Positions 1,699 through 46,079 are shown, counted from the first letter of the stretch. The stretch: 64,000 nt of DNA from Candidatus Caldarchaeales archaeon (GCA_039630085.1 JBCNVM010000005.1:14122-78121), one strand, 5' to 3'. The notes: generated by a model from the sequence alone, not told the origin. A program made the numbers and translations.

Positions 1699-2445
1699 GT
1701 GCGGAGCGTGAGGCTCCCGGAGCGGCCCGAGGACCTTCTGCCGTCGGTGAGGGCGGCCCTCTGCAAAGAGCTGCTCGAGAGGTACGGGCTCCGTAAAGTG
1801 CAGGTCGCCTCGGTCCTCGGAGTCAGGCCCGCGACGGTCACCCACTACCTCAGCGGGAAGAGGGGCGCCCTCTGGCTCGAGGTCATCGGGTCGGACGAGG
1901 AGGCCCGTAGGATGATATCGGAGGCGGCGGAGTCGATGGCGAGGAGGCACAGGTTAGGCGTGGCCGTCGACGCCTCGAGGGAGGTGTCCGAGCTCGCGAA
2001 CAGGCTCTACTCGGTCATCGCTGGCGGACGCGCTGCCGGAGGCGCCGGAGGCCTGAGCGAGGAGGCGCTGAGCTCCATCGCGGAGAGGATCAGGTTCGAG
2101 GAGGCGGTCGCGAGGAGGGTGCTCGAGGTGATGAACAGGGTGAGGAACGTAGCAGTCCAGCAGGTCCTGAGGCAGATAGCCGTCGACAGCCTAAGGCACG
2201 CCGAGATCCTCACGCTCGTCTCTAGGGGCGTGGGGGCCGACGATGAGTCCCTGAAGTCGGACCTGGTTCTGCTGGAGGAGCTGATGAAGTACGAGTCGGA
2301 GGCCGAGGAGAAGGATCTCTCTGAGCTCGCCAGGACTGTGGGCAACCCGGCGCTCGCGGCCCTGCTCATCTCGATCGACCACGACGAGCGGAAGCACGTC
2401 GCGATGCTCGAGGTCATCCTCGGATCGGGGCGCGACGAAGTTTGA
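1699..2445 (+). CDS. HTH-domain transcriptional regulator with C-terminal helical (ferritin-like?) domain
   Basis: N-terminal winged-HTH-like segment (LRKVQVASVLGVRPATVTHYLSGKRG) and a C-terminal helical region with an H/E-rich motif (IDHDERKHVAMLEVI). GTG start about 55 nt after a TATA-like tctaaatg. Confidence 0.5.
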   Translation: MRSVRLPERPEDLLPSVRAALCKELLERYGLRKVQVASVLGVRPATVTHYLSGKRGALWLEVIGSDEEARRMISEAAESMARRHRLGVAVDASREVSELANRLYSVIAGGRAAGGAGGLSEEALSSIAERIRFEEAVARRVLEVMNRVRNVAVQQVLRQIAVDSLRHAEILTLVSRGVGADDESLKSDLVLLEELMKYESEAEEKDLSELARTVGNPALAALLISIDHDERKHVAMLEVILGSGRDEV

Positions 2446-2459
2446 GGGCGTTGATTTAA

Positions 2460-2494
2460 CGTCGTGAATTCCAGCCTAACGCGACGGAGTTTTG
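2460..2494 (+). terminator. hairpin (CGTCG-17 nt-CGACG) followed by a T4 run, 15 nt after the stop of the 1699-2445 gene
   Basis: Inverted repeat 2460-2464/2482-2486 followed by TTTT 2491-2494. Archaeal terminators are T-rich. Confidence 0.3.
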
Positions 2495-2550
2495 GGGATC
2501 TGCAGGAATTCCGGATCCCCTCCTCCAAACGATGAATTGTCTTCGTGAAA

Positions 2551-2573
2551 GGTTAATTATAACGACGTTATAA
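2551..2573 (+). promoter_or_regulatory. phnD promoter: TATA-like ttaattat overlapped by the perfect palindrome TTATAACG-A-CGTTATAA (candidate RbkR-type operator)
   Basis: The palindrome at 2557-2573 lies 11 nt upstream of the GTG start at 2584. The same core ATAACG-N-CGTTAT recurs at 45332-45344. Confidence 0.55.
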
Positions 2574-2583
2574 TCGAGCAGGC

Positions 2584-3513
2584 GTGAAACGCTGGCACCT
2601 CTTCGGGATCCTCGCGATAGGTGCGCTCGCGTTCGTCGCATTCTGGACTCTCTGGGACACGCAGACAAGAGAGGAGCCGATCGTGATCGCGATCCAGCCG
2701 ACCCAGAACCCTGCCGCAATTCTCGAGAGGGCGCAGCAGCTGAAGGAGTACCTGGCAGGAAAGCTCGGCAGACCGGTCGAGGTCTACGTCCCGACCAGCT
2801 ACTCGGCGGTGATCGAGGGGCTGAGGTACGGCAACGTCCACGCGGCTATGATGGGTTCCTGGCCCTCTGCGATCGCGGTGAGGGTCGCGGACGCGGAGGT
2901 CTACCTCGCGGAGGTGAGGACGGTGGCGATCGACGGCAGGAGGGTCGAGGGCACGTTCTACTTCTCCTACTGGATCGTTAGGCAGGACTCGCCTTACGCC
3001 GGGCTCGGGGACCTCAGGGGGGAGAGGGTCTGCTTCCCTAGCCCCATCTCATCCTCGGGTTACCTAGCTCCGCTGGCGAGGATGGTCGAGCTCGGTCTCC
3101 TCACGCGGAGGGACGACAAGCCTGTTGACCCGAAGGAGTTCTTCTCCGAGGTCTACTTCGGCGGCGGTTACCAGCAGTGCTACGAGGCCCTTATGGCGGG
3201 GAACGTGGACGTCACCGTGACTGCGGGCGACGTCGCCTACGACCTCTACCAGAAGGTAATGGCGACGACCAAGGTGATCGAGCAGCAGGGACCGCTGCCG
3301 TCCCACACGCTTGTCGTCTCGAGGAGGCTGGACCCGCGGACTAGGGAGCTCTTAGTCTCGGCCTTCGAGGAGCTCGGTAGGGAGGAGCACAGGGACCTCA
3401 TGAGGAGGCTGGTCTCCGGGCTCTTCGTCGGGTGGGAGAGGAAGGGCTCGGCGGATCACCTCGCATCCCTGCAAAGGTTTATCGAGCTGACGGGGCTCGG
3501 GTACGACGCCTGA
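2584..3513 (+). CDS. phnD: ABC transporter substrate-binding protein, PhnD/SsuA (phosphonate/phosphite) family
   Basis: N-terminal signal/TM anchor. PhnD-like motifs (IAIQPTQNP, TSYSAVIEGLRYGNVHAAMMGSW, PSPISSSGYLAP). Followed by the cognate ATPase and permease. Confidence 0.8.
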   Translation: MKRWHLFGILAIGALAFVAFWTLWDTQTREEPIVIAIQPTQNPAAILERAQQLKEYLAGKLGRPVEVYVPTSYSAVIEGLRYGNVHAAMMGSWPSAIAVRVADAEVYLAEVRTVAIDGRRVEGTFYFSYWIVRQDSPYAGLGDLRGERVCFPSPISSSGYLAPLARMVELGLLTRRDDKPVDPKEFFSEVYFGGGYQQCYEALMAGNVDVTVTAGDVAYDLYQKVMATTKVIEQQGPLPSHTLVVSRRLDPRTRELLVSAFEELGREEHRDLMRRLVSGLFVGWERKGSADHLASLQRFIELTGLGYDA

Positions 3514-3523: not shown

Positions 3524-4231
3524 TTGAGGATATCGCTGCGGGACGTGAGCTTCGCCTACAGGCGCGGGAGACCGGTCCTCAGCTCCGTGAGCCTCGACAT
3601 CGAGTCGGGAGAGGTCCTGATGGTTCTGGGGAGGAGCGGCGTCGGGAAGACCACGCTCCTCAAGCTCGCGGCAGGGCTCCTGAGGCCCCAGTCCGGTTCG
3701 GTCGTGTACGAGGGCCTCCAGGCCGACGGGAAGGGGAGCCGGGCGGTGGCCTACGTCCCGCAGGCGATCGGGATCGTCGAGAACATCACGGTCCTCGAGA
3801 ACGCGCTCCTCGGGGCCCTCGGCAGGCTCTCGTTCTTCTCGCAGGTCGTCGGGTCGTTCCCCGAGGAAACGGTCTCACGGGCGAGGGAGGTCTGCGAGCT
3901 GTTGGGCCTAGGGGATCACGTCCACGTCAAGGCGAAGGAGCTGAGCGGCGGGCAGAAGCAGAGGGTCGCGATCGCGAGGGCGCTGGTGCAGGGCGCGAGG
4001 ATCGTCCTCGCCGACGAGTTCGTCTCCCAGCTCGACCCCCTGACGGCGCTGGAGGTGCTGGAGCTGACCAGGGACCTTAGGAAGGAAGGGATCGGGTTCG
4101 CGATCACCACGCACGACGTGCACCTCGTCCCGAAGTTCGGCGACAAGGTCGCGGTGATCAGGGACGGCCGGATCGTCCTTCATAGGGACGCCTCGAGCGC
4201 GTCCGTCGAGGAGGTCCTGAGCGTGTTTTGA
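3524..4231 (+). CDS. phnC: ABC transporter ATP-binding protein (PhnC-like)
   Basis: Walker A GRSGVGKTT, signature LSGGQKQRVAIARAL, Walker B IVLADEF, H-loop ITTHD. Confidence 0.85.
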   Translation: MRISLRDVSFAYRRGRPVLSSVSLDIESGEVLMVLGRSGVGKTTLLKLAAGLLRPQSGSVVYEGLQADGKGSRAVAYVPQAIGIVENITVLENALLGALGRLSFFSQVVGSFPEETVSRAREVCELLGLGDHVHVKAKELSGGQKQRVAIARALVQGARIVLADEFVSQLDPLTALEVLELTRDLRKEGIGFAITTHDVHLVPKFGDKVAVIRDGRIVLHRDASSASVEEVLSVF

Positions 4232-4995
4232 GGACCGGTTGGCGGACGGGCCCCAACACGGACCTGCTGATCCTCTTGGGGGTCACGCTGGTCCTGCTCT
4301 GGCACTTCGGGGCCTTCAGCCCTAGGACGATCTCCAAGCTCCCGAACCTCGGCCTCTTCCTCGCGAACGCGTTCCCTCCCGACCCGGAGCCCCTCCCGGT
4401 CCTCTTGGTCAGCATGCTCGAGACCGTCCTGATTGCGCTCGCAGGGACGGCCCTCGCGGTCATGGTCTCTGTGCCGCTGGCGTCGCTGAGCAGCAGGTCC
4501 CTCTTCTCACCGCCGGTCACCGGCGTCTTCAGGTTCGTTCTCTCGGTGATCAGGACGATACCCGCGATCCTCTGGGCGCTCCTCTTCGTCATAACGGTCG
4601 GGTTCGGGCCGCTAGCGGGCGTCCTTGGAACCGCGATGTACTCCATCGGGTATCTGGGGAAGCTCCTCTACGAGGCCTTCGACGCCGTCGACAGGGACGT
4701 GCTGGACTCGGTCAGGATCTCGGGCGCGGGCAAGCTGGCGTTAATGAGGTACGTCGTGATCCCCGAGTCCGCGAACTACATCATCAGCCAAGCGATCTTC
4801 ATGTTCGAGTACAACGTGAGGGCCTCGACGATCCTCGGCCTGGTCGGTGCCGGAGGCATCGGCTTCTACATCCTCTCGTACGTCCAGGTCCTAGACTACA
4901 GGTCCCTCACGACGGCACTGATCGTGGTCCTGGCCTTCGTAGTGGCGATAGACGTCGCGAGCGGCAGACTGAGGTCGAGGTTCCTGCCCTCCTGA
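4228..4995 (+). CDS. phnE: ABC transporter permease (PhnE-like)
   Basis: Six predicted TM segments and the PhnE-type EAA-loop region. ATGA overlap with phnC. Confidence 0.8.
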   Translation: MRTGWRTGPNTDLLILLGVTLVLLWHFGAFSPRTISKLPNLGLFLANAFPPDPEPLPVLLVSMLETVLIALAGTALAVMVSVPLASLSSRSLFSPPVTGVFRFVLSVIRTIPAILWALLFVITVGFGPLAGVLGTAMYSIGYLGKLLYEAFDAVDRDVLDSVRISGAGKLALMRYVVIPESANYIISQAIFMFEYNVRASTILGLVGAGGIGFYILSYVQVLDYRSLTTALIVVLAFVVAIDVASGRLRSRFLPS

Positions 4996-5015: not shown

Positions 5016-5642
5016 TTAGAACCCCTTCGGCCTGATCGGCCTCCTCCTAGAGTGGAAGCCTCCCGCGTCCTTGAACCTCTCCTCGGCCCAGACGTTGCCC
5101 CGCTCGTGGTAGCCCCCGTTCTCCGGCCTCTCCCAGAACCCGTCCTCGTACTCCTCGATGAACTCGATCTCGTTCAGCCACTTCGCGCTCTTCCAGAGGT
5201 AGAGGTGGGGGATGAAGGGCCTCGCGGGGAACCCGTTCTCGAGGGGGATGGGCCTCCCGTCGATCCTAAGGGCCACGATCGCGTCCTCGTCGAGCGCGTC
5301 CTCTATCGGCACGGGCGCGGAGTAACCGTCGAGGCACCTGAACATCACCCACCTGGCATCGGGCTTGACGCCCGCGAGCTCCGCGAGGTGCCTGATCTGT
5401 ATTCCCTCCCACTCGACGTCCTTCACCGACCACTTGGTTACGCAGTGGGCGTCCCTGACGTACCTCCTCATCGGCATCCTGAGCAGCTCTTCGTAGGTGA
5501 AGGAGAGCGGCCTCTCGACGAGCCCGGTCACAGAGAGCCTGTAGCTGTTCAGGTCTACCCTCGGTATGCCGAGCGCCGCATAGACGATGAAGTCCCTGAC
5601 GTACCTCTGGCCCGGGGGGAGCCTCCCTTGGACCTGCTCCAT
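5016..5642 (-). CDS. molybdopterin-dependent oxidoreductase, sulfite-oxidase family (YedY/MsrP-like catalytic domain)
   Basis: SO-family Mo-binding motifs ([40 protein letters not shown]). Only the C-terminal 208 codons of the 734-aa track ORF are real; the start is the ATG at 5642-5640. Confidence 0.7.
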
Positions 5643-5744
5643 GCTCCCCTTCGCCGCGTGCCCCGAGAGATATCGGTTTGTCCTGGCCGCATATCCGATG
5701 CCATCGCCCCTCAAATAAATTAACACCGGCGACGCCCTATTGGC

Positions 5745-7529
5745 ATGGATGCGCAGTACATCAGGGGGCTGGTGGAGGCCGCGCAGGGCAAGCGGAGGCT
5801 CACGCTCCTCCTGAAGGGTGCACAGGTCCTCAACGTCTACTCGGGCGAGGTGGAGGAGGCCGACGTCGGGATTTACGGCGACAGGGTCGTCTACGTGGGG
5901 AGGGACGCGCCGAGCGCGGAGACCGTGCTGAACGTCGAGGGCGTGATCGTGCCGGGCTTCATCGACACCCACCTTCACATCGAGAGCAGCATGGTCACCC
6001 CCGCCAGGTTCGCGGAGGCCGTCCTCCCGCACGGGACGACGACGGTCTGCGCGGATCCTCACGAGATCGCGAACGTCCTCGGGATCGAGGGCGTCAGGAT
6101 GATGCTCGAGAACTCGAGGGGCCTGCCCATGAGGATCACGTACTTCGTGCCGACCTGCGTCCCCGAGTCCGACGCGGTCACGGCCGGGGCCGAAATCACC
6201 CCGGAGGACGTCGAGAGGGCCCTCGACTGGGAGGGGATAGTCGGGCTGGGCGAGGTGATGGACTTCGAGTCGGTCCTCGCGGGCCGCGAGAAGTTCATGC
6301 GGATCCTCGAGATAGGCTGGAGGAGGAGGTGCGTGATAGACGGCCACTGCGTCCTCCTTTCGGGCGCGAGGCTGAACGCGTACGTCGCGACGGGCCCCGA
6401 GGCGGACCACGAGAACTTCACCGTCGAGTCCGCGGTCGAGAAGCTCAGGAGGGGGATGTACGTCAAGCTCAGGGGACCCTACATCCTTGACCCGTCGAGG
6501 TTCGTGAGGGCGATCGGTTCGCTTCCGAGCCCCTGGGACCGGGTGATCCTGGTGACGGACGACGTGATGCCTGACACGCTCGCGGAGAGGGGCCATCTGG
6601 ACTTCGTTGTGAGGTCGATGATCGAAGCCGGCATGGACGAGGTCGAGGCGGTGCGGAGCGTCACGCTGAGGCCCGCGACCCACATGAGGATGTTCGAGCT
6701 GGGAGCGGTCTCGCCGGGCAAGGTCGCCGACTTGGTCGTCCTCGGGAGCCTGAGGAGGGTCGACGCGAGGATGGTGCTCTTCGGGGGCAGGGTCGTCGCG
6801 AGGGACGGGAGGCTCGTCGTGGACCTCCCCGAGAGGAAGTTCGACAGGAGGGCCCTCGGGACCGTCAAGGTGGGGGAACTGAGGCCCGAGGACTTCGAGT
6901 TCAGGCCGCCGGTGAGCGACGGCAGGCTGGTCCTGAACGTGATCGAGTTCAGGAGGCCCGACCCCTCGGTCGGGGACGTCTCGAGGGCGTTCCTCGAGAT
7001 GATCGTGACGAAGAGGTCGACGGCGGAGGTCGAGGTGAGGGGAGGCAGGGCGATGCTCGGAGACGTGGCGCTGATGGTCGTCGTGGAAAGGCACAGGCGC
7101 ACCGGGAAGAGGGGCTACGGGTTCGTGAAGGGCTTCATGGAGAGGGGCGCGATCGCGACGACCGTCGCCCACGACTCCCACAACCTCGCGGTCATAGGGA
7201 CCGACCCGAGGGACATGCACCTCGCGGCGACCGAGGTCGTCAAGTCCGAGGGGGGACTGGTCGCGGTCCTCAACGGCGAGGTCCTATCGAGGATAGAGCT
7301 CCCCATCGCGGGGCTGATGTCAGAGGAGCCGGTGCGGGTCATGGCTGAGAAGATGAAGGGGTTCAGGAAGGCGCTGGAGAGGCTCGGAGCCATCGACCAC
7401 CCCTACATGCCGATCGTCTCGCTCCTCACGCTGTCCGTCATCCCCGAGGCCCGCGTCACCGACAAGGGGCTCTTCGACGTCAACGCGCAGAGGTTCGTGG
7501 ACCCGGTAGCGGCCGTCGTCCCCGCGTGA
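5745..7529 (+). CDS. ade: adenine deaminase
   Basis: Amidohydrolase metal ligands and Ade-family motifs ([32 protein letters not shown]). Length about 590 aa. TATA aaataaattaa about 30 nt upstream. Confidence 0.85.
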
Positions 7530-7539
7530 ACCTGCGGCG

Positions 7540-8940
7540 GTGCGCAATTTGGAGCTGGACCTACTCCTGAGGGACTGCAGGGTAGCAGACCCGTTCGGGA
7601 CCTTCGAGTGCGACGTCGGTGTGGAGGGCGGGAAAATCGCGGTCATCGCGAAGTCCGTCGAGGCCCGGGCCGAGAAAGTGATCGACGCTTCCGGGAAGTT
7701 AGTCGTCCCGGGTGCGATAGACGGGCACGTGCACTTTGAGATGCAGTACGGAGGAGGGATCGCGACGGCCGACGACTTCGACTCCGGGAGCGCGGCGGCC
7801 TCGTGCGGCGGTGTCACGACCTTCATCGACTTCGTGACGCCGGAGAGAGGAGGCTCGGTCGTCGGGGCCTTCGAGGAGAGGCTTGCGGCCGCATCCGCGA
7901 GGTCGAGGATCGACTTCGGGCTCCACGTCTGCGTCCTCGAGTGGGGTCCGCGGGTCGAGGCCGAGCTGAACGAGCTCGTGGGCAGGAGGGGCGTCTCCTC
8001 GGTCAAGGTCTTCACGGCCTACAGCAGGAGGGGCCTGATGATCGACGACGGGTCCCTCCTCCGGGCGCTCAGATGGGCCGCGGGAGCCGGAGTGCTGGTC
8101 CTCTGCCACTGCGAGAACGAGTGGATCGTGCTCAGGGAGACCGAGAGGCTCGCGGAGGAGGCGAACGCGGACGTCTCGAGGTACGAGGAGAGCAGGCCGG
8201 CGGTCTCGGAGGCAGAGGCGGTCCTCAGGCTGGGCTACCTCTCGTCCGTGACAGGAGCCGAGGTCCTGGTCGTCCACCTCACGTCGGGGGCGGGGCTCAA
8301 GGCCGCGGAGGCCGCGAGGAGGATTGGAGCGAGGATGCTGGTCGAGACCTGTCCCCACTACCTCGTATTGTCCAAGGATGTCTACTCGAGGCCCGACGGC
8401 GGACTCTTCGTCATGGCGCCGCCCCTCAGGGCGAAGGAGGACGCTGAGGCCCTCTGGTCAGGGCTCGCCTCGGGCCAGATAGACGTCGTGGGGAGCGACC
8501 ACGCTCCCTACGCGTCGGCCATCAAGCTGAGGTCGAGGGACTTCCGGGAGATACCGGGAGGCGTACAGGGGACCGAGTCGATCGTCCCGATACTCTTCTC
8601 GGAGGGCGTGAGGAAGGGCAGGATAACTCTCGAGGAGTTCGTCCGCCTGACCTCCTATAACCCCGCGAGGGCCTACGGCCTCTATCCGAGGAAGGGGAGG
8701 ATTGCGGTGGGCGCCGACGCGGACATCGTCCTGATCGATCCGGAGAGGAGGGTGAGGCTCGGGAGGGACGTCCTCCACAGCAGGCTCGACTTCTCGATCT
8801 ACGAGGGGATGGAGGTGACCGGGTATCCGGTGATGACGGTCTCGAGGGGCGAGGTGGTCGCGGAGGACGGAGAGGTAACCTCGAGGCCCGGGAGGGGAGT
8901 TTACGTCCACAGGGCGACCAAGGCTCAGGGGCCCAAGTAG
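7540..8940 (+). CDS. cyclic amidohydrolase: dihydropyrimidinase/D-hydantoinase (HyuA-like)
   Basis: DHPase/hydantoinase motifs (VPGAIDGHVHFEM, SVKVFTAY, carboxylated-Lys region, VGSDHAPY). Confidence 0.8.
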   Translation: MRNLELDLLLRDCRVADPFGTFECDVGVEGGKIAVIAKSVEARAEKVIDASGKLVVPGAIDGHVHFEMQYGGGIATADDFDSGSAAASCGGVTTFIDFVTPERGGSVVGAFEERLAAASARSRIDFGLHVCVLEWGPRVEAELNELVGRRGVSSVKVFTAYSRRGLMIDDGSLLRALRWAAGAGVLVLCHCENEWIVLRETERLAEEANADVSRYEESRPAVSEAEAVLRLGYLSSVTGAEVLVVHLTSGAGLKAAEAARRIGARMLVETCPHYLVLSKDVYSRPDGGLFVMAPPLRAKEDAEALWSGLASGQIDVVGSDHAPYASAIKLRSRDFREIPGGVQGTESIVPILFSEGVRKGRITLEEFVRLTSYNPARAYGLYPRKGRIAVGADADIVLIDPERRVRLGRDVLHSRLDFSIYEGMEVTGYPVMTVSRGEVVAEDGEVTSRPGRGVYVHRATKAQGPK

Positions 8941-10190
8941 TGCCTCAGCTGCTTGACGTCCGGCGTTATCAGCGGTATCTCCCCGACCGTTGGGACGAGC
9001 TTCTCGACCTCCTTCAGGCCCGAGCCCGTGACCAGCACGACCGCTTCGTCGGACTCGTCGAGTTGGCCTTCGTCCCTCAATCTTATCGCGGCCGCGACAC
9101 CGACCGCGCCCGAGGGCTCCGCGAAGACGCCAGCCTTACTGGCGAGCAGCCTCACGGCCTCAAGGATCTCCTGGTCGCTTACCGCGACCGCTGTCCCTCC
9201 GGTCCTCCGGATTCCCTCCAACGCCGCGTCGCCGTCCCAAGGATACGGGTCCAGGAGCCCGGAGGCGATCGACTTGGGCGACCTCTCGGGTTCGACCTCG
9301 CTGAAGGAGAGCCCCCTCCTGACGGCCCTCACGAGGGGTTGGTTGCCCTCTGGCTGGACCGCGATCAGCCTCGGCATCTCGCCCTCCACGAGCCCGAGCT
9401 CGACGAGGTCCCTCACGCCCTTCCAGATCCCCGCGAGGAGGCAGCCCGAACCCGTCGGGACGATCACCGCGTCCGGGAACCTCCAGCCCAGCTGCTCCGC
9501 GACCTCGTAGAGGATGGTCTTGGGGCCCTCGACCTGATAGGGGTTGAAGGGTCCGAAGCTCGGGCAGGGGTACCAGCCGAACTCGTCGACCGCCATAAGC
9601 ATCGCCTGGACCGTCGGGTCCTTCCCCTCCTCGACCGCCCTGACCCTGAAAAGCCTCGCACCGTAGGAGAGCAGCTGCGCGGCCTTCCCCAGCGAGACGC
9701 TCTCGGGGACGAACGCGACGCACCTCAGCCCCAAGCTCGCGGCGTAGGCGGCGAGCGCGGATGCCGCGTTCCCGCTGGACGCGGTCACGACCGTCTCCAC
9801 CCCCCACTCGGCGGCCTTCGCGGCTCCCACGGCCATCGCCCTGTCCTTGAACGAGCCCGTCGGATTCCTGGTCTCGTCCTTCAGCCTCATCCTCCTCAGG
9901 CCGAGGTGGTCGTTGAGCCTCCTGGCGCAGAAGAGCGGTGTCAGGCCCTCGTCGAGGGGCGTGCCGAACTCCCTCGCGGCAGGGAGCAGCTCCCAGTACC
10001 TCCAGACCCCTCCGGTCCATGGCCTCTTTGAGACCGTCTCCCGTCTCAGGAACTCCTTCAGCTCCTCGTAGTCGTAGACGACGTCGAGCCTCCCCAGGTC
10101 CCTCGAGCCGCAGAGGACCGGCCTCTCGGCCGGCAGGTAGCTCCTCCCGCACTTGGAGCAGACCAGCTCGCTGACGAAGGACAAGCTCAT
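8925..10190 (-). CDS. thrC: threonine synthase
   Basis: N-terminal zinc-ribbon (CSKCGRSY…C) and the PLP site PTGSFKDR. ThrC-type length and motifs. Confidence 0.85.
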   Translation of the reverse strand: MSLSFVSELVCSKCGRSYLPAERPVLCGSRDLGRLDVVYDYEELKEFLRRETVSKRPWTGGVWRYWELLPAAREFGTPLDEGLTPLFCARRLNDHLGLRRMRLKDETRNPTGSFKDRAMAVGAAKAAEWGVETVVTASSGNAASALAAYAASLGLRCVAFVPESVSLGKAAQLLSYGARLFRVRAVEEGKDPTVQAMLMAVDEFGWYPCPSFGPFNPYQVEGPKTILYEVAEQLGWRFPDAVIVPTGSGCLLAGIWKGVRDLVELGLVEGEMPRLIAVQPEGNQPLVRAVRRGLSFSEVEPERSPKSIASGLLDPYPWDGDAALEGIRRTGGTAVAVSDQEILEAVRLLASKAGVFAEPSGAVGVAAAIRLRDEGQLDESDEAVVLVTGSGLKEVEKLVPTVGEIPLITPDVKQLRHYLGP

Positions 10191-11563
10191 GCACCTCCGC
10201 GCAGCGGCTCCACGGCCCTGTGCGGCCCCCCGCCGAGCCTCTCCCAGAGCCTCTCGACCGACCTGAGGACCTTCTCCTCCGCCTCCCTCTGGTCGACCCT
10301 CAGAAGCCTCCCGTCCCTTGCGACGACCTCGCCCCCGACCATCACGAGCCTTACGTCAGAGCCCCTCACGCCGTTGACGACGTAGGAGTACGGGTCTCCG
10401 GTCAGCGGCGCGGCCATTACCGTCGGCCTCACGACGATGAGGTCCGCGAGCTTCCCGGGCTTCAGGGACCCGAGGTCCCTCAGTCCGTAAGCCATAGCGG
10501 CCCTGACGGTCACCATCTCTAAGACCTCCTTCGCGGAGAGCGCGGTCGGGTCCCTCCTGTGGACCCTGTGGACCAAGAACGCGGCCCTGGCGTTCTCGAA
10601 GGCGTCGAAGACGTAGCCGTCGTTGCCGAGGCAGACGTTCACGCCCTCCCTGAGCATCTCGGGGACCGGTGAGACCCCGACCGCGTTCAGCATGTTGCTC
10701 ATCGGGTTGTGAGCCACGTTGGTTCCCGTCCTCGCGAGGACCGAGATCTCCTTAGGGGAGAGGTGAACGCAGTGGGCCAAGACGGCCTTCGGCGAGAGCA
10801 GCCCGAGCCCCTCGAGCCTCTCGACGGTCCTCACCCCGTACCTCTCGATGTTGTGGTAGACGTCGTTCGGCCCCTCGGAGACGTGGACCGTGATCGGGCA
10901 ATCGAACCGCTCCGAGAGCTCGACGGCCCTCCTGATCAGGTCGTCGGTGACCGTGAAGGACGCGTGGACGCTAACCATCCCCTTCGCCCTCCTCGAAGCG
11001 GAGCTCGAGAGGAACCGCTCGTTCTCCCTGAGCCCCCTCAGGCCCTCCTCGCCGCTCCTCCTCTCTGTGGCCTCGAAGGAGACCAGGCCCCTGATCCCGA
11101 CCTCGTCGACAGCCCTAGCTATCGCGTCGAGGGAGCCCTCTATCCCGTTGGGCGCCGAGTAAGTGTCGGCGAAGCAGGTGGTCCCGGTGAGGGCCATCTC
11201 CATGCACGCCGCGAGGGCCGTCGCGTAGGCCGCCTCGTTGTCGAGCCTCTCGTCCAGCGGCCACCAGACCCTCTGGAGGATCTGGAGGAAGTCGGAGGGC
11301 GGTTCGACCTTGAGGTTCGAGCCCCGCAGCGCGATCCCGTAGAGGTGGGTGTGGCCGCAGATCAGCCCGGGAAGCACGAAGCAGCCCCTCGCGTCGATGA
11401 CCTCGTCGGCCTTCGCCCCCCTCGTCACCTCCTCGACCTTTCCGACCGCGGCTATCCTCTCGTCCTCAACCAGTACGGCCCCTTCCCTGATCACCCCGAG
11501 ACCCTCGTCCATCGTGACGACCACGCCGCCCCTCACCAGCTTCCTCTCGTGCCCCATCTTCAC
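10187..11563 (-). CDS. ssnA: SsnA-like aminohydrolase (chlorohydrolase/MtaD-SsnA family amidohydrolase)
   Basis: Close motif-level match to E. coli SsnA (PGLICGHTHLYGIALRG vs PGIVCSHNHFYSGLSRG; DFLQILQRVWWPLDERLDNE vs DFISTLKNLWWRLDRALDEE). Metal ligands HxH…H…D are present. Confidence 0.8.
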   Translation of the reverse strand: MKMGHERKLVRGGVVVTMDEGLGVIREGAVLVEDERIAAVGKVEEVTRGAKADEVIDARGCFVLPGLICGHTHLYGIALRGSNLKVEPPSDFLQILQRVWWPLDERLDNEAAYATALAACMEMALTGTTCFADTYSAPNGIEGSLDAIARAVDEVGIRGLVSFEATERRSGEEGLRGLRENERFLSSSASRRAKGMVSVHASFTVTDDLIRRAVELSERFDCPITVHVSEGPNDVYHNIERYGVRTVERLEGLGLLSPKAVLAHCVHLSPKEISVLARTGTNVAHNPMSNMLNAVGVSPVPEMLREGVNVCLGNDGYVFDAFENARAAFLVHRVHRRDPTALSAKEVLEMVTVRAAMAYGLRDLGSLKPGKLADLIVVRPTVMAAPLTGDPYSYVVNGVRGSDVRLVMVGGEVVARDGRLLRVDQREAEEKVLRSVERLWERLGGGPHRAVEPLRGGA

Positions 11564-11566: not shown

Positions 11567-12574
11567 TCAGAGCGCTGCGAGGGCCCTAACCGCGTACTCC
11601 ACGTCCCCGCTCAGCGGCAGGATGAGGGGCGCGGTGCAGCCGTGGGCCATGTACTCCTCGATCTTCCTCTTAACCTCCGAAGGCGTCCCCGATGCGGTGA
11701 TGAGCCTCACGACGTCGTCCGGCACGATCTCCATCGCCCTCTCGATCCCGCCCGGCTTCGCAGGCCAACCTCCCATCGCCCTCTGGACTTCCTCGATCAG
11801 GTCCTCGCTCACGCCGCTCGCCTTCATGATGTGGGGCTGCTGGCCGAGGGTCATCGTCACGTGCTTCTTCGCGAGCCTGATCGCGTGGTCGCCGTCCTCG
11901 TGGATCGAGCAGGCTATCAGCTGGGGCCTGTCGATCTCCTCGAGCCTCCTCCCGGCCTTCGCGGCCCCGGCCTTGATGTGCTCGATGGCTCTGTCGTTGT
12001 AGAGGGGCGAGACTAGGTAGTTGAGGAGGACGCCGTCAGCGATCTCGCCGGAGAGCTCCATCATCTTGAACCCGGTCGCGCCGATGTAGATAGGGATGTT
12101 CCTCGGGACAGGGCCCTTGCCGTGCAGGACGTCGAGCCTGACGCCCCTGAGCTTCACGAACTCGCCCTCGTAGGTCACCTCCTCCATCCTGAAGAGCCTC
12201 CTGATCGCCTCGACGTACTCCCTCATACACGTGAGGGGCTCTTTCCTCTCGATCCCGACCTTCCACGCGAGCGGGTCCCACCACGCCCCGAGCCCCAGCA
12301 GTATCCTGTCGTCGGCGAGCTCGTCCAGCGTCGCGAAGGTCTGCGCGATCAGGGCCGCGTTCCTGGTCCACGTGTTGATGACGCCCGCTCCCACCTTGAT
12401 CCTCCTAGTAACGGCGGCTATCGCGGTCATCGGGACGATCGCGTCCCTCGAGAGCCTGGACTCCGCGATCCAGACTGACTCGAACCCGTGCTCCTCCGCG
12501 ACCTGCGCGTACCTCATCATGTCCCTGACGTGCATGTCCTGGAGGTAAAGCCCGAGACGGGGTATCGAGCCCAC
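11567..12574 (-). CDS. F420-dependent luciferase-like oxidoreductase, Mer (methylene-H4MPT reductase)-like
   Basis: LLM fold. Strong similarity to Mer ([27 protein letters not shown]). Confidence 0.7.
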
Positions 12575-14736: not shown

Positions 14737-16245
14737 ATGAGGGGGATAACGAAGAGGTTCCCGGGAGGGGTCGTAGCCAACGACGGTGTCGACTTCACCC
14801 TTTACGCGGGGGAGGTCCACGCGCTGCTGGGCGAGAACGGCGCTGGCAAGACGACGCTGATGAACATACTCTACGGTCTCTACGGAAAGGACTCGGGCGA
14901 GATCCTGATCGAGGGCAAGAGGGTCAACGTGAGGTCGCCCAAGGACGCGATAAGGCACGGACTCGGGATGGTCCACCAGCAGTTCAAGCTGATCCCCAAG
15001 CACACGGTCCTCGAGAACGTCGTCCTGGGGCTGAAGGAGGCCGGGATCGTGCTGGACTACGGCAGGCTGAGGTCGATGCTATCGGAGCTGGTCGCGAGGT
15101 ACGGTTGGAACGTCAGCCCCGACGACTACGTCTGGCAGCTCACGGCCTCCCAGAAGCAGCAGGTCGAGATCCTCAAGATGCTCGTGAGGAGGGCGAAGGT
15201 CCTGATACTCGACGAGCCGACGTCGATCCTCACGCCGCAGGAGACAGCCCAGTTCTTCGAGAGCGTCAGGGCGATGGCGAACTCGGGGATGGGCGTCGTG
15301 CTAGTGACGCACAAGCTCGAGGAGGTGATGAGGGTGAGCGACAGGGTCACGGTGATGAGGAAGGGGAAGGTCGTCGCGGTCAGGAGGACCTGCGAGGTCT
15401 CCATGGGCGAGCTCGTCTCCCTGATGATAGGGAGGGAGGTGGGACTCTCCTACCCGCACGCGTCCCAGCCCTCGCAGGAGCAGGTCCTGGTGGTGGAGGA
15501 CCTCCACGTGAGGGACGACAGGGGCCACCTAGCGGTGAAGGGGGTCTCGTTCAGCGTCAGGAGGGGCGAGATCTTCGGGATCGCGGGAGTTGCGGGGAAC
15601 GGCCAGGACGAGCTCCTCGAGGCGATCTACGGCCTCAGGAGGGTCTCGAAGGGGAGGGTGCTCCTCGCGGGGAAGGACGCGACGAACAGGCACACGTACG
15701 ACCTGGTCCTCGAGGGCGTCTCGATGATCGTCCCGGAGCCCCAGAAGGGCGTCGGTCTGGGCCTGGAGGTCGCCGAGAACCTCCTGCTGAAGTGCTACAG
15801 GAGGCCTCCCTACTCGAGGACCGGAGTGCTGAACAGGGACCTGATGAGGAGGAGGGCCGAGGAGCTGATAAGGAGCCTCTCGATCGTGACGAGGTCCCCG
15901 ACCGCGAAGGCCCAGACGCTCTCCGGCGGCAACCTCCAGAGGTTGGTGATCGCGAGGGAGCTCTTCGCGTGTCCCGCCGGCGAGCTGCCGCAGCTCGTCC
16001 TCGCGGCTTATCCGACGAAGGGCCTCGACGTCGGTGCGACGGACTTCGTCAGGAGGCTCCTCCTCGACCTGAAGTCCAAGGGCGTCGCGATCGTCCTCCT
16101 CTCCGACGACCTCGAGGAGCTACTCGCGATGAGCGACAGGATAGGCGTGATGTACAAGGGCGAGATGGTCGGAATACTGGAGAGAGGTTCGGCGAGCCTG
16201 GAGCGGGTGGGCGTCATGATGCTGGGAGCCCGGGGCGCGGGTTAG
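14737..16245 (+). CDS. ABC transporter ATP-binding protein with tandem ATPase domains (sugar/nucleoside CUT2-type, RbsA/MglA-like)
   Basis: Two ABC cassettes (GENGAGKTTL…LTASQKQQVEILKML…LDEPTS; GVAGNGQDEL…LSGGNLQRLVIAREL). Real start is the ATG at 14737; the track ORF begins upstream in a shadow frame. No permease or SBP is adjacent. Confidence 0.8.
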   Translation: MRGITKRFPGGVVANDGVDFTLYAGEVHALLGENGAGKTTLMNILYGLYGKDSGEILIEGKRVNVRSPKDAIRHGLGMVHQQFKLIPKHTVLENVVLGLKEAGIVLDYGRLRSMLSELVARYGWNVSPDDYVWQLTASQKQQVEILKMLVRRAKVLILDEPTSILTPQETAQFFESVRAMANSGMGVVLVTHKLEEVMRVSDRVTVMRKGKVVAVRRTCEVSMGELVSLMIGREVGLSYPHASQPSQEQVLVVEDLHVRDDRGHLAVKGVSFSVRRGEIFGIAGVAGNGQDELLEAIYGLRRVSKGRVLLAGKDATNRHTYDLVLEGVSMIVPEPQKGVGLGLEVAENLLLKCYRRPPYSRTGVLNRDLMRRRAEELIRSLSIVTRSPTAKAQTLSGGNLQRLVIARELFACPAGELPQLVLAAYPTKGLDVGATDFVRRLLLDLKSKGVAIVLLSDDLEELLAMSDRIGVMYKGEMVGILERGSASLERVGVMMLGARGAG

Positions 16246-21816: not shown

Positions 21817-22422
21817 TCACTGGACGCCGAACATCGATTTCACGACCCGTTCGAGCTCCGCGGCCCGTTCCTCGTCCGAGGCGGCCACGGCGTACCGCCT
21901 CCTCTCACCTCCGCGCCTCAACGTGAACTCGAGATGCACGCCGCGCCTCCTCACCGTCTCGCACTCGACCGTCCCGAGCTCTGAGGTCCACGAGATCCTC
22001 GTCCACTTGACGCCAAACCGGGGCCCCAGGACCTCGTTCAAGAACCTGATCGCCCGGGAGAGGGTGATGCCTGCGATTGAGCCTAGCGTCGCCTCGGTCT
22101 CCGCCTGCTCGTCCCTCCTTCGGCTCTCGGAGAAGAGCCACCAGACGCCCGTCTGGAAGAGTTGATCGAGGAGGTGTTCAGCGACCGAGCCATTAAGACG
22201 GCTGACGGGCCTTGTGTCGGGCGGGACGTTAGCGACGTGCGAGGTCTCGACCTCGACGACCCTGCCCTCCGTGACGATCAGGAAGCACCTGACCACACCG
22301 CCTCCCAACGTCCTCCAGGAGAACGTCCTCCTCCAGCAGTCGATGACCGCGACCACCTTCTCGTCTCCGGCCTCGGCCACGCCGGTTCCTCGCCGACCTG
22401 GGATAAGAGTTGCGGGATGCAA
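21817..22422 (-). CDS. hypothetical protein
   Basis: 201-aa ORF with native codon usage and no recognisable domain. May start internally. Confidence 0.35.
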   Translation of the reverse strand: MHPATLIPGRRGTGVAEAGDEKVVAVIDCWRRTFSWRTLGGGVVRCFLIVTEGRVVEVETSHVANVPPDTRPVSRLNGSVAEHLLDQLFQTGVWWLFSESRRRDEQAETEATLGSIAGITLSRAIRFLNEVLGPRFGVKWTRISWTSELGTVECETVRRRGVHLEFTLRRGGERRRYAVAASDEERAAELERVVKSMFGVQ

Positions 22423-22428
22423 CCGGAG

Positions 22429-22503
22429 TGCCCCGGCCGGGATTTGAACCCGGGTCCCCGGCTCGAAAGGCCGGTATACTTGACCTGGCTATACGACCGG
22501 GGC
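22429..22503 (-). tRNA. tRNA-Glu (anticodon UUC)
   Basis: Manual fold: acceptor GCCCCGG/CCGGGGC plus A, D-arm GTAT/ATAC, anticodon arm CCGGC-CTTTCGA-GCCGG (UUC), T-arm CCGGG-TTCAAAT-CCCGG. CCA is not encoded. TATA about 30 nt upstream. Confidence 0.85.
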
Positions 22504-22566
22504 CTCGGCCGCAAATCCGTGCGCGTTCTAATAAAGGATTTTAACCGCGTCGACGAATTATGCTCG
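22504..22566. promoter_or_regulatory. AT-rich divergent promoter region (ctaataaaggattttaacc) serving tRNA-Glu (-) and the aldehyde dehydrogenase gene (+)
   Basis: Local AT enrichment and TATA-like elements in both orientations. Confidence 0.45.
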
Positions 22567-37872: not shown

Positions 37873-37873
37873 G

Positions 37874-45310: not shown

Positions 45311-45344
45311 GTTTAAACTATATCAGATGGTATAACGCCGTTAT
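45311..45344 (+). promoter_or_regulatory. rbkR promoter: TATA gtttaaactatat followed by the palindrome ATAACG-C-CGTTAT between TATA and the start codon
   Basis: Palindrome at 45332-45344. The ATG at 45351 implies a leaderless transcript with the operator over the TSS. Confidence 0.55.
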
Positions 45345-45350: not shown

Positions 45351-46079
45351 ATGGCCCTGAACCTAGTGGCCATCAAGGCCCTCCTGAACCTCTACGCCCA
45401 GAACGGGTTCTCCAGCAGCGTCAAGGTCTCAACTCCCGCGCTCGCGAAGGCGCTCGGGACCTCGCAGCAGTCGGCCTCAAGGATCCTAATCAGGCTCGAG
45501 AAGGAGGGGCTGATCGAGAGGCGGTCCGTGGGCAGGATGACGTACGTGAGGGTGACGGAGCTCGGCCTCAACAGGCTGCTGGACCTATATACTGACCTGA
45601 GGGTCGTGATCGAAAGGCCGATGGACTTCGTGCTCGAGGGCAGGGTCTTCACGGGCTTCGGCGAGGGCGGTTATTACGTCTCGCTGCCGCAATACAGGCA
45701 GCAGTTCAGGGAGAAGCTGGGGTTCGACCCCTACCCGGGGACGCTGAACGTCAGGCTCCTCTCGGTCGACTCGATACACAACAGGAGGCTCCTCAGTAGG
45801 ATCGCCGACGTCAGGATCGAGGGCTTCAGGAACGGCAACAGGACCTACGGCGGCCTCAAGGCGATCAGCGGGACCTTCAACGACTCCGAGCTATGCGCGG
45901 TGCTGTTCATCGAGCGGACTCACTACGGCGACGACGTCGTGGAGATCATCTCGCCGGTCTACCTCAGGGGGAGGTTCGGCCTGAAGGACGGCGACAAGGT
46001 CAGGGTCCGGGTCACGATACCCAAGGAGAAGGTCGAGCGCGAGCAGGTCGGCGGCGAGCTCGTGAGCGTCGGTCCCTGA
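45351..46079 (+). CDS. rbkR: bifunctional winged-helix transcription regulator / CTP-dependent riboflavin kinase (RbkR-type)
   Basis: N-terminal wHTH (LAKALGTSQQSASRILIRLEKEGLI) fused to an archaeal RibK (MJ0056/DUF120) domain (FTGFGEGGYYVSLPQYRQQFREKLGFDPYPGTLNVRL…). Confidence 0.8.
   Translation: MALNLVAIKALLNLYAQNGFSSSVKVSTPALAKALGTSQQSASRILIRLEKEGLIERRSVGRMTYVRVTELGLNRLLDLYTDLRVVIERPMDFVLEGRVFTGFGEGGYYVSLPQYRQQFREKLGFDPYPGTLNVRLLSVDSIHNRRLLSRIADVRIEGFRNGNRTYGGLKAISGTFNDSELCAVLFIERTHYGDDVVEIISPVYLRGRFGLKDGDKVRVRVTIPKEKVEREQVGGELVSVGP

What the first reader, a model, noticed from the sequence alone, without database searches (positions are those of the whole stretch)
2557..2573. Shared palindromic operator ATAACG-N-CGTTAT in the phnD and rbkR promoters, suggesting the PhnDCE-like importer is in the riboflavin-kinase-regulator (RbkR) regulon
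TTATAACG-A-CGTTATAA (2557-2573) overlaps the TATA/TSS region of the phnD-like gene. ATAACG-C-CGTTAT (45332-45344) lies between the TATA and the leaderless start of the wHTH-riboflavin-kinase fusion gene. A 13-mer recurring with one central mismatch in two promoters of a 64-kb, 67% GC window is very unlikely by chance (expectation well below 0.01). RbkR-type regulators are known to autoregulate through palindromes near their own TSS. The second site implies this PhnD/SsuA-family ABC system is flavin-controlled, making it a candidate flavin or flavin-precursor importer rather than a phosphonate transporter.
Basis: partly seen in the sequence, partly recalled or inferred. Interest (0 to 1): 0.6.

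Follow-up and report, generated by a model that had tools for sequence, protein, structure and literature searches.

The report
Shared operator links iron importer, riboflavin kinase
A 13-base palindrome that sits on the promoters of both a transporter operon and the riboflavin-kinase/regulator gene is real and conserved across hot-spring archaea, but the transporter looks like a transferrin-like iron importer rather than a flavin importer, so the site probably couples iron uptake to flavin cofactor synthesis.

Summary
ATAACGACGTTAT (2559-2571) and ATAACGCCGTTAT (45332-45344) are the only such sites in 64 kb; about 5e-4 are expected in the intergenic DNA.

ATAAC-N3-GTTAT is conserved upstream of about 20 distinct orthologous "phnD-like" operons, always 19-21 bp before the start codon. 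It is also upstream of rbkR in 6 of 7 Caldarchaeales lineages, 12-13 bp before the ATG. It occurs nowhere else in the DNA examined, so co-regulation is well supported.

- **The transporter looks like an iron importer.** Its bacterial orthologues (46-55% identity, same invariant residues) lie in DtxR/IdeR iron regulons: iron boxes in 21 of 54 loci, with adjacent DtxR genes, TonB receptors and FTR1 permeases. None of 60 loci scanned has an FMN riboswitch.
- **The binding protein resembles transferrin.** It aligns with the transferrin iron ligands Tyr95, Tyr188 and His249 and with the anion site.
- **The binding factor is unresolved.** RbkR is one candidate. A second is an HTH plus four-helix-bundle protein (1699-2445) encoded next to the transporter in three clades. 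That candidate better fits the repressor-type position of the sites and one contig where rbkR lacks the site.

My best reading is an iron-flavin co-regulation operator.

The parts
2557..2573 (.). Proximal operator of the ABC operon: TTATAACGaCGTTATAA, with conserved core ATAAC-N3-GTTAT at 2559-2571. Its centre is 19 bp upstream of the GTG start, and its left arm overlaps the TATA-like element.
   Evidence: The core is invariant in about 20 distinct orthologous loci, with the centre always -19 to -21 from the start codon.
2456..2468 (.). Distal, weaker site of the same class (TTAACgtcGTGAA), 103 bp upstream of the proximal site and just after the stop codon of the upstream regulator gene.
   Evidence: Conserved in L007 (TTAACgccGTGAA) and L009 (TTAACacgGTTAA). 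Other clades carry TTTAC-N3-GTAAA/GTTAA 41-42 bp upstream of the proximal site.
2537..2549 (.). Possible third, degenerate site (TTGTCttcGTGAA) overlapping the BRE-like GTGAAAGG. Its status is uncertain.
   Evidence: The block is conserved in the four window-clade genomes. L104 has TTCACggcGTGAG at a comparable place. This assignment is inference.
2553..2562 (+). TATA-like element TTAATTATAA of the ABC operon promoter. Its position implies a leaderless or near-leaderless mRNA starting near 2584.
   Evidence: Sequence; conserved as TT(T)ATTATAA in orthologues. The transcription start is inferred, not measured.
2584..3513 (+). Substrate-binding protein of the PhnD/TIGR01098 superfamily, belonging to a transferrin-like subfamily with invariant Y126, Y196, H241 and S156-G159.
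3524..4231 (+). ABC ATPase of the operon.
4228..4995 (+). ABC permease. It passes the PhnE-type model TIGR01097 (229 bits against a 217-bit cut-off).
1699..2445 (+). Candidate local regulator: an N-terminal XRE-type HTH joined to a C-terminal all-helical domain with invariant E134, D163, H167, E199, E203, E230 and H233. The pattern resembles ferritin or rubrerythrin.
   Evidence: It is adjacent to the operon in three clades, each with a different arrangement.
45332..45344 (.). Operator in the rbkR promoter (ATAACgccGTTAT), centred 13 bp upstream of the ATG, between the TATA-like element and the start.
   Evidence: Conserved as ATAAC-N3-GT(T/A)AT in L001, L003, L006, L019 and L020. Absent in L102/L103.
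45312..45323 (+). TATA-like element TTTAAACTATAT of the rbkR promoter.
   Evidence: conserved TAAACTATAT. The function is inferred.
45351..46079 (+). rbkR: a winged-HTH domain fused to a CTP-dependent riboflavin kinase.
   Evidence: Matches T. acidophilum RbkR (3CTA/5TRD) at E = 1e-38 with an identical SQQSASRI recognition helix. Kinase motif residues are invariant.

Best explanation
ATAAC-N3-GTTAT is the operator of one repressor. In Caldarchaeales (Aigarchaeota) it co-regulates an ABC importer operon and the riboflavin-kinase/regulator gene rbkR.

Both sites lie on the core promoter. At the importer the site overlaps the TATA box and is centred about 20 bp before the start codon. At rbkR it lies between the TATA box and the start, centred about 12 bp before the ATG. 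A bound protein would therefore block TBP/TFB or RNA polymerase.

The importer is annotated 'phosphonate' but is most likely a transferrin-like ferric-iron (plus anion) uptake system. The circuit therefore links iron acquisition with FMN formation, an archaeal counterpart of the bacterial iron-riboflavin axis.

I think the most likely binder is the HTH + four-helix-bundle protein encoded next to the importer (window 1699-2445). It would act as a metal-loaded repressor that releases both promoters when iron is scarce. RbkR itself is the main alternative binder.

Shown: the sites exist, are conserved and specific, and hold fixed positions; the transporter family is linked to iron in bacteria; the regulator gene is linked to the operon.

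Inferred: which protein binds, which effector it senses, the direction of regulation, the transcription starts, and the substrate.
For: Operator:
- Exact sites and statistics.
- Footprint upstream of rbkR in 6 lineages (62-100% protein identity) with diverged flanks.
- Footprint upstream of about 20 distinct phnD-like loci (50-92% identity) with constant geometry, plus a second site 41-42 bp upstream (103 bp in the window clade).
- Both loci carry the site in the same assemblies (GCA_025058055, GCA_025059595, GCA_033581295).

Iron:
- 16 of 54 non-redundant bacterial loci have a divergent DtxR-family gene (PF01325 + PF02742 + FeoA).
- 21 of 54 have TTAGG-N4-CCTAA iron boxes, mostly directly upstream of the binding-protein gene.
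- 7 have a TonB receptor and 9 an FTR1 permease.
- The family profile hits transferrins at E = 3e-10 to 1e-6.
- Y126, Y196 and H241 align with human transferrin Y95, Y188 and H249, and S156-G159 with the anion site. PtxB and HtxB have other residues at the Y196 and H241 positions.
- Foldseek places transferrins right after the PhnD family.
- Transferrins are reported to share an origin with phosphonate-binding periplasmic proteins (PMC7676907).

Candidate regulator:
- Homologues sit next to the operon in three clades with three different arrangements.
- The contig Ga0063012_10000542 keeps three sites between this gene and the importer but has none at rbkR.
- A related palindrome, ATCACaacGTGAA, lies upstream of the homologue's operon in a Thermoplasmata contig.
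- Conserved acidic and His residues sit on a predicted helical bundle.

Iron control of flavin genes is well documented in bacteria (PMC6041382, PMC5816637).
Against: - No binding data exist for any protein.
- The regulator gene is not adjacent to the operon in at least four other clades (L012, L014, L017, L029-L037 groups). I could not test whether it is present in all motif-bearing genomes.
- Its own promoter lacks the motif in the window and in L105.
- Its C-terminal domain has no significant Pfam or Foldseek match, so 'ferritin-like iron sensor' rests on a residue pattern and on one source's name for a homologue ('transcriptional regulator/rubrerythrin').
- A palindrome conserved in the promoter of a transcription-factor gene is most simply that factor's own autoregulatory site, which favours RbkR.
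- The transferrin Asp ligand has no conserved counterpart.
- The iron assignment is by genomic context, not biochemistry. Manganese or a metal chelate is not excluded.
Confidence: 0.45

Rival explanations
1. RbkR binds ATAAC-N3-GTTAT, autoregulates, and controls the ABC operon, which imports riboflavin, FMN or a flavin precursor in these riboflavin-auxotrophic archaea.
For: - The site is in rbkR's own promoter in 6 of 7 lineages.
- RbkR regulons typically contain rbkR plus a vitamin transporter, and in B2 auxotrophs the transporter can be the only target (PMC5397151).
- Calditenuis aerorheumensis is reported unable to make riboflavin (PMC4681859).
- The recognition helix SQQSASRI is identical to that of T. 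acidophilum RbkR, where Gln39 and Gln40 read the A and the G opposite C of the TTAC half-site. The invariant core of the new motif is AC-N3-GT.
- No riboflavin biosynthesis gene was found in the window.
Against: - The transporter family is under DtxR/IdeR iron boxes in bacteria, with the same invariant pocket residues, and none of 60 loci scanned has an FMN riboswitch.
- The recognition helix is invariant from Aigarchaeota to Thaumarchaeota. Yet the published thaumarchaeal and Thermoplasmata motif is TTAC-N10-GTAA, 7 bp wider, and no such site occurs in the window or in any locus.
- Sites over or downstream of the TATA box imply repression. With FMN releasing RbkR from DNA, as measured for two RbkRs, low FMN would shut off the importer and rbkR, which is the wrong logic.
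- rbkR lacks the site on a contig whose importer keeps three.
Confidence: 0.15
2. This is a hybrid model. RbkR is the binder, but the importer carries iron, so flavin status gates iron uptake. The neighbouring HTH protein would act through the distal TTTAC/GTGAA-type sites, or not at all.
For: It combines the autoregulation argument with the iron evidence. Proximal sites are invariant ATAAC/GTTAT, while distal sites form a looser TT(T/A/C)AC-N3-GT(A/T/G)AA class. Two proteins could therefore read the two classes. Reciprocal riboflavin-iron regulation is known in bacteria (PMC5816637).
Against: The spacing and regulatory-logic problems are the same as for the flavin model. There is no obvious physiological reason to repress iron uptake when FMN is low. 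The two site classes share the same AC-N3-GT core and grade into each other: L009 has TTAACacgGTTAA, and the rbkR sites in L019 and L020 are ATAAC-N3-GTAAT.
Confidence: 0.2
3. Another, unidentified factor encoded elsewhere binds the site, for example an Lrp/FFRP-type or other wHTH protein of the kind known to use compact 5-3-5 palindromes. Neither RbkR nor the neighbouring HTH protein would be involved.
For: From my own knowledge, not tested here: 13-bp 5-3-5 palindromes are typical of archaeal Lrp-family proteins and some other wHTH factors. The neighbouring HTH gene is missing from the neighbourhood in most clades, and its own promoter lacks the site.
Against: No candidate gene is linked to either target. 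Two candidate regulator genes are already physically linked to the sites.
Confidence: 0.15
4. The recurrence is chance, or the motif is part of the general TATA/BRE promoter consensus.
For: The left arm overlaps an A+T-rich TATA-like element at the importer promoter.
Against: About 5e-4 sites are expected in intergenic DNA. There is no further occurrence in the window, and only two off-target matches of the loosest 8-position pattern (L023:359, L030:4020) among the roughly 30 archaeal loci, none matching ATAAC-N3-GTTAT. The arms are invariant while the flanks and spacer diverge.
Confidence: 0.01

Closest known systems
RbkR regulons of Archaea (Rodionova et al. 2017, PMC5397151)
   Same: The gene is the same bifunctional wHTH + CTP-dependent riboflavin kinase. 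A palindrome lies in the rbkR promoter and upstream of a transporter operon. The lineage is reported to be a B2 auxotroph.
   Different: - The motif ATAAC-N3-GTTAT matches none of the published consensus motifs (TnnCA-N4-TGnnA, TTAC-N10-GTAA, AAACT-N2-AGTTT, TAAAA-N6-TTTTA, TnAG-N6-CTnA).
- The sites lie over or downstream of the TATA box rather than upstream of it.
- The transporter is neither RibU (ECF) nor RibT (MFS); it is a PhnD-family ABC system with iron context.
- Aigarchaeota were not in that study.
DtxR/IdeR iron regulons of bacteria (iron box TTAGG-N4-CCTAA type)
   Same: The orthologous ABC operon is a direct target in many bacterial loci. The logic would also be the same: a repressor on the promoter of an iron uptake operon, often encoded divergently next to it.
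   Different: No DtxR-family gene or iron box is present at the archaeal loci. The archaeal operator sequence is unrelated. The candidate regulator has an XRE-type HTH and a helical bundle rather than the DtxR fold.
PhnD/PtxB/HtxB/AioX/ArrX oxyanion-binding proteins (PF12974, TIGR01098)
   Same: The fold and family are the same (Foldseek E about 1e-22, TIGR01098 above cut-off). The Ser-rich anion loop is retained (SSSG).
   Different: It falls below the PhnD equivalog cut-off. The positions that bind the oxyanion in PtxB and HtxB are replaced by Tyr196 and His241. The genomic context is iron, not phosphorus.
Transferrins and phytotransferrin (Fe(III) + synergistic anion)
   Same: Sequence and fold are similar, centred on the Tyr95 strand and the anion-binding helix. 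Y126, Y196 and H241 align with Tyr95, Tyr188 and His249. A common origin with phosphonate-binding proteins is reported (PMC7676907).
   Different: This is a single lobe that serves as the binding protein of an ABC importer. The Asp ligand is not conserved. No metal binding has been shown.
Bacterial iron-riboflavin axis (Fur/iron control of rib genes; PMC6041382, PMC5816637)
   Same: An iron uptake function and a flavin metabolism gene are co-regulated.
   Different: The setting is archaeal. The flavin gene is the kinase/regulator rbkR rather than a biosynthetic gene. The regulator is unknown.

Membership tests
RbkR (bifunctional riboflavin kinase/regulator) | N-terminal wHTH fused to a CTP-dependent riboflavin kinase domain (PF01982), with the CTP and FMN site residues intact. 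| tested here: met
   PF01982 at E = 8e-40 plus MarR/HTH_Crp_2. NF010762 matches best at 215 bits, below its 279-bit cut-off. 3CTA/5TRD at E = 1e-38 over residues 24-221. GxGxG, YPGTLN, Glu198 and LR are invariant.
RbkR regulon (operator bound by RbkR) | The operator matches a lineage RbkR motif and is found upstream of rbkR and of flavin synthesis or uptake genes. | tested here: inconclusive
   The site is present at rbkR in 6 of 7 lineages and at one transporter operon. It matches no published motif. No TTAC-N10-GTAA site was found. No rib gene was available to test.
RbkR regulon (operator bound by RbkR) | RbkR binds the site, with binding stimulated by CTP and relieved by FMN. | not testable with these tools
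   Needs EMSA or fluorescence polarisation with purified protein.
Riboflavin/FMN importer | Linked to flavin metabolism in other lineages (FMN riboswitch, rib gene neighbourhood), or binds flavin. | tested here: not met
   No FMN riboswitch was found in L010, L011 and 60 bacterial loci. The recurrent neighbours in the bacterial loci are iron-related. Flavin binding itself is not testable here.
Phosphonate ABC transporter PhnCDE | The binding protein reaches the PhnD equivalog score, and phosphonate catabolism genes or Pho control are nearby. | tested here: not met
   TIGR03431 scores 129 bits against a 261-bit cut-off, and PhnC scores 178 against 266. Only PhnE passes (229 against 217). None of the roughly 50 window proteins scanned against Pfam matched a phosphonate-catabolism family.
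PF12974/TIGR01098 oxyanion-binding protein superfamily | Sequence and fold of the family. | tested here: met
   PF12974 at E = 5e-47. TIGR01098 at 148 bits against 112. Foldseek PtxB/PhnD/ArrX at E about 1e-22 with a model of pLDDT 91.
Iron-regulated uptake system (DtxR/IdeR regulon member) - bacterial orthologues | An iron box in the promoter and a DtxR-family regulator or iron-uptake genes adjacent. | tested here: met
   Of 54 non-redundant loci, 21 have TTAGG-N4-CCTAA, 16 a DtxR gene, 7 a TonB receptor and 9 an FTR1 permease.
Transferrin-like Fe(III)-binding site | Tyr, Tyr, His and Asp ligands plus a synergistic-anion site. | tested here: inconclusive
   Y126, Y196, H241 and S156-G159 align with Y95, Y188, H249 and R124-G127. 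Two of the three alignment segments are weak on their own. The Asp is not matched. Metal binding is untested.
Ferritin/rubrerythrin-like metal-sensing regulator (ORF 1699-2445) | A four-helix bundle with paired E...ExxH metal ligands, fused to a DNA-binding domain. | tested here: inconclusive
   HTH_3 is weak (E = 7e-4). The model is all-helical with pLDDT 83. E134, D163, H167, E199, E203, E230 and H233 are invariant. The best Foldseek E-value is 0.8, with rubrerythrin and ferritin-like entries only among non-significant hits.

The most novel reading that the evidence does not exclude
Caldarchaeales, and relatives in Nitrososphaerota and Thermoplasmata, use a previously undescribed iron-sensing repressor: an XRE-type HTH fused to a ferritin-like four-helix bundle. 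It binds WT(A/T)AC-N3-GT(A/T)AW operators. It co-represses a prokaryotic, single-lobe transferrin-like Fe(III) ABC importer, now mis-annotated as 'phosphonate' in thousands of genomes, together with the riboflavin kinase/regulator gene. That would be the first archaeal iron-flavin regulatory circuit. It would also identify an extant ferric-binding prokaryotic relative of transferrin.
Probability: 0.3. Interest if true: 0.8.

Novelty: new variant of a known kind. Interest (0 to 1): 0.62.

Why it matters
- **A new, testable operator.** It defines an archaeal cis-element (ATAAC-N3-GTTAT) with unusually clean comparative support, in an uncultivated hot-spring lineage where no regulon is known.
- **A likely mis-annotation.** A widespread 'phosphate/phosphite/phosphonate ABC transporter substrate-binding protein' subfamily (archaea, Chloroflexi, Acidobacteria, Armatimonadota and others) is probably an iron-regulated, transferrin-like metal importer. 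That affects the phosphorus and iron budgets inferred from metagenomes.
- **An archaeal iron-flavin link.** It points to coupling between iron uptake and FMN synthesis, and it nominates a new candidate metal-sensing regulator family.
- **A caution for regulon inference.** 'Motif shared with a regulator's own promoter' is not enough to assign a regulon or a substrate.

Tried and rejected
- **FMN or other riboswitch upstream of bacterial orthologues.** None was found in L010, L011 and 60 further loci. The only hit was an unrelated cobalamin riboswitch on the far side of L084.
- **Published RbkR motifs.** TTAC-N10-GTAA has no relevant hit in the window and none in 106 loci. The other consensus motifs do not resemble the site.
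- **Generic promoter element or chance.** Rejected.
- **Autoregulation of the neighbouring HTH gene.** No motif lies upstream of it in the window or in L105. L040 has only a TTTAC-N2-GTAAA about 150 bp upstream, which is not convincing.
- **Supplementary tables.** Those of the RbkR paper and of the Calditenuis paper (site lists, identity of the 'riboflavin transporter' _00369-_00370) are not held.
- **Literature on PhnD-family iron binding or IdeR-regulated 'phosphonate' transporters.** Nothing relevant was found.
- **Riboflavin biosynthesis genes in the window.** None among about 50 proteins scanned.

Full report
**1. The observation**

The window reads TTATAACGACGTTATAA at 2557-2573 and ATAACGCCGTTAT at 45332-45344. 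The first site ends 11 bp before the GTG start (2584) of a 309-aa PF12974 binding protein. That gene is followed by an ABC ATPase (3524-4231) and a permease (4228-4995). The second site ends 7 bp before the ATG (45351) of a 242-aa protein with a MarR-like wHTH and a CTP-dependent riboflavin kinase domain.

- The 13-mer with a free centre occurs twice, against 0.00 in shuffles.
- The 8-base core TAAC-N3-GTTA with up to 1 mismatch occurs three times, all in these two intergenic regions.
- Against the fairer null of intergenic DNA only (3087 bp, 61.5% GC), 5.5e-4 sites are expected.
- Only four perfect 5-3-5 palindromes exist in the window's intergenic DNA, and two of them are this one.

**2. Source organism and conservation of the site**

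The RbkR protein is 100% identical to a protein of a Candidatus Caldarchaeales (Aigarchaeota) MAG.

*rbkR loci.* I fetched rbkR loci of relatives with 88, 85, 74, 65 and 62% protein identity. All carry ATAAC-N3-GT(T/A)AT centred 12-13 bp before the ATG, while the flanks and the three central bases differ.

*Importer loci.* I also fetched orthologous binding-protein loci from GTDB genomes, NCBI MAGs and JGI metagenomes. About 20 distinct archaeal loci (50-92% identity) all carry ATAAC-N3-GTTAT centred 19-21 bp before the start codon, overlapping a TATA-like TT(T/A)AT(T/A)ATAA.

*Second site.* Most importer promoters have a second, looser site (TTTAC-N3-GTAAA/GTTAA, or TTAAC-N3-GTGAA in the window clade at 2456-2468). 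It lies 41-42 bp upstream of the first, or 103 bp in the window clade.

*Same genomes.* In three assemblies both loci are present and both carry the site (GCA_025058055, GCA_025059595, GCA_033581295).

*Specificity.* The full motif WTWAC-N3-GTWAW appears nowhere else in the loci scanned with it, apart from a second palindrome inside rbkR in L020. The looser 8-position pattern gives two stray hits far from the promoters in L023 and L030. Three low-GC, Thaumarchaeota-like loci have ATAAC-N4-GTTAT instead.

This is a strong phylogenetic footprint, so the two transcription units are co-regulated through this element.

**3. What the transporter is**

The binding protein belongs to the PhnD superfamily (PF12974; TIGR01098 above cut-off). 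It falls far below the PhnD equivalog cut-off, and none of the roughly 50 window proteins scanned matched a phosphonate-catabolism family.

The family is very well conserved between archaea and bacteria, at about 50% identity with many invariant residues. The bacterial loci returned by the metagenome scan reduce to 54 after removing duplicates. Among those 54:

| Feature | Loci |
|---|---|
| DtxR-family regulator gene close by, usually divergent (Fe_dep_repress + Fe_dep_repr_C + FeoA) | 16 |
| IdeR-type iron boxes TTAGG-N4-CCTAA, mostly directly upstream of the binding-protein gene | 21 |
| TonB-dependent receptor | 7 (immediately upstream in 6) |
| FTR1-type iron permease | 9 |

None of 60 loci scanned has an FMN riboswitch or any other relevant riboswitch.

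The family profile hits transferrins in the PDB at E = 3e-10 to 1e-6, over the strand that carries Tyr95 and the anion-binding helix. A local profile alignment places the invariant Y126, Y196 and H241 on transferrin's iron ligands Tyr95, Tyr188 and His249, and S156-G159 on the anion site. PtxB and HtxB have other residues at the Y196 and H241 positions.

A confident model (pLDDT 91) finds the PhnD family first and transferrins next. A review states that transferrin and phytotransferrin share an origin with phosphonate-binding periplasmic proteins (PMC7676907).

I conclude that the operon most likely imports ferric iron, or another DtxR-controlled metal species. Phosphonate is unlikely and flavin is unlikely. 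This rests on context and residue patterns, not biochemistry.

**4. Which protein binds the operator: RbkR**

In favour of RbkR:
- The site is in its own promoter in 6 of 7 lineages.
- RbkR regulons typically contain rbkR and a vitamin transporter (PMC5397151).
- Calditenuis, of the family Calditenuaceae to which the L008 and L009 records are assigned, is reported to lack riboflavin synthesis (PMC4681859).
- The recognition helix SQQSASRI is identical to that of T. acidophilum RbkR. There Gln39 and Gln40 read the A and the G opposite C of the TTAC half-site, and AC-N3-GT is the invariant core here.

Against RbkR:
- The same helix is invariant in thaumarchaeal RbkRs. Their published motif, like the crystallised one, is TTAC-N10-GTAA. 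That puts the AC steps 7 bp further apart than here, and no such site exists in the window or the loci.
- The sites lie over or downstream of the TATA box, a repressor position. Published RbkR sites lie upstream of promoter elements. DNA binding is stimulated by CTP and relieved by FMN, so a repressing RbkR would shut off its targets when FMN is low.
- The transporter family is linked to iron.
- On contig Ga0063012_10000542 the importer keeps three sites, but rbkR, 22 kb away, has none.

**5. Which protein binds the operator: the neighbouring HTH protein**

ORF 1699-2445 encodes a weak XRE-type HTH followed by an all-helical domain. Seven acidic or His residues are invariant across Aigarchaeota and Thermoplasmata homologues: E134, D163, H167, E199, E203, E230 and H233. 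One homologue is named 'transcriptional regulator/rubrerythrin' by its source.

In favour:
- Its homologues sit next to the importer in three clades with three different arrangements. In the window clade the gene is upstream on the same strand. In L104 it is divergent, sharing the intergenic region that holds the three sites. In L040 it is downstream and convergent. Conserved linkage through rearrangement is the usual sign of a local regulator, and it mirrors the divergent DtxR gene in bacteria.
- A Thermoplasmata homologue's operon is preceded by ATCACaacGTGAA, a palindrome of the same architecture.

Against:
- The gene is not adjacent in other clades.
- Its own promoter lacks the site.
- The fold search was not significant.

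**6. Synthesis**

What is solid: a conserved, specific operator on two core promoters, and a transporter family with an iron signature.

What is inferred: a repressor, most plausibly the neighbouring metal-sensing HTH protein, holds both promoters shut when iron is sufficient. Iron limitation would then induce both iron uptake and RbkR, the only riboflavin kinase. Raising FMN supply under iron limitation would match the iron-riboflavin axis described in bacteria (PMC6041382, PMC5816637).

My probabilities for the binder and the substrate are:

| Model | Probability |
|---|---|
| Neighbouring HTH protein binds; importer carries iron | about 0.45 |
| RbkR binds; importer carries iron | about 0.2 |
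| Another factor binds | about 0.15 |
| Chance | below 0.01 |

**7. Novelty**

Aigarchaeota were not covered by the RbkR study, and the motif is new. The iron reading of this 'phosphonate' subfamily and the candidate regulator family appear undescribed in the literature I could search. The general themes are known: operator-based co-regulation, iron-flavin coupling, and the homology between PhnD-family proteins and transferrins. I therefore rate it a new variant of a known kind, of moderate to high interest.

Noticed in passing
L022-L037 and L017 (e.g. L022:1771 and 1813; L026:2836 and 2878; L033:2934 and 2975); window 2456 and 2559: The distal and proximal sites of the importer promoter are spaced exactly 41-42 bp apart (about four helical turns) in several clades, and 103-105 bp in the window clade. 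This suggests same-face cooperative binding or looping.
   Followed up: partly
L040:2847, L041:1621, L043:192: Low-GC, Thaumarchaeota-like orthologous loci carry ATAAC-N4-GTTAT (one base wider) just before the binding-protein gene. They also have a conserved GTTAA-N8-TTAAC element about 40 bp upstream. L040 also encodes the HTH/helical-bundle homologue downstream of the operon (5426-6088, minus strand).
   Followed up: partly
L020:5062-5074 (= L021:1909-1921): A second perfect palindrome, TTAACAGTGTTAA, lies inside the rbkR coding region, 79 bp downstream of the promoter site, in one lineage only.
   Followed up: no
L106:4055-6780: In a Thermoplasmata contig the HTH/helical-bundle homologue follows a 264-aa gene of unknown function. 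The pair is preceded by ATCACaacGTGAA (5041-5053). A GTP cyclohydrolase II gene (riboflavin pathway, PF00925) is divergent about 340 bp away, which is a possible second flavin link for this regulator family.
   Followed up: partly
L017:1-4919: In one Aigarchaeota clade the importer operon directly follows electron-transfer-flavoprotein alpha/beta genes and a luciferase-like oxidoreductase gene.
   Followed up: no
window 30769-34765 and 11567-12574: The window is rich in flavoprotein genes: ETF-QO (30769-32469), ETF alpha/beta-like genes (32470-34765) and a luciferase-like monooxygenase (11567-12574). None has the motif upstream.
   Followed up: partly
window 5016-11563: Downstream of the importer lie a molybdopterin oxidoreductase-domain gene (5016-5660, minus strand), an adenine-deaminase-like amidohydrolase (5745-7529), two further amidohydrolases (7540-8940; 10187-11563) and a PLP enzyme (8925-10190). 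This may be a purine or pyrimidine salvage cluster.
   Followed up: no
window 37054-39085: An ABC-3 family (Mn/Zn/Fe-chelate type) permease gene is followed by a 403-aa protein with a weak CarboxypepD_reg match. This second putative metal transporter has no ATAAC-N3-GTTAT site.
   Followed up: no
window 22428-22503 (minus strand): A tRNA-Glu (TTC) gene lies inside the mechanically called ORF 22162-24144. The aldehyde dehydrogenase domain starts only at residue 186, so the real start of that gene is probably downstream of the tRNA.
   Followed up: no
L084:32-205 (minus strand): A cobalamin riboswitch lies on a bacterial contig about 2.8 kb upstream of the orthologous binding-protein gene, on the opposite strand and beyond a TonB receptor gene. 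It is unrelated to the importer.
   Followed up: no
L073, L079, L093, L098, L099 intergenic regions: Some bacterial loci with the divergent DtxR-family gene lack the TTAGG-N4-CCTAA box. They share an AAACTTT-N-AAAGTTT-like repeat instead, perhaps the operator of a different DtxR/MntR subfamily.
   Followed up: no
window 16242-17294 and 49421-50350: The same 64-kb window holds two separate aspartate/ornithine carbamoyltransferase-family genes.
   Followed up: no
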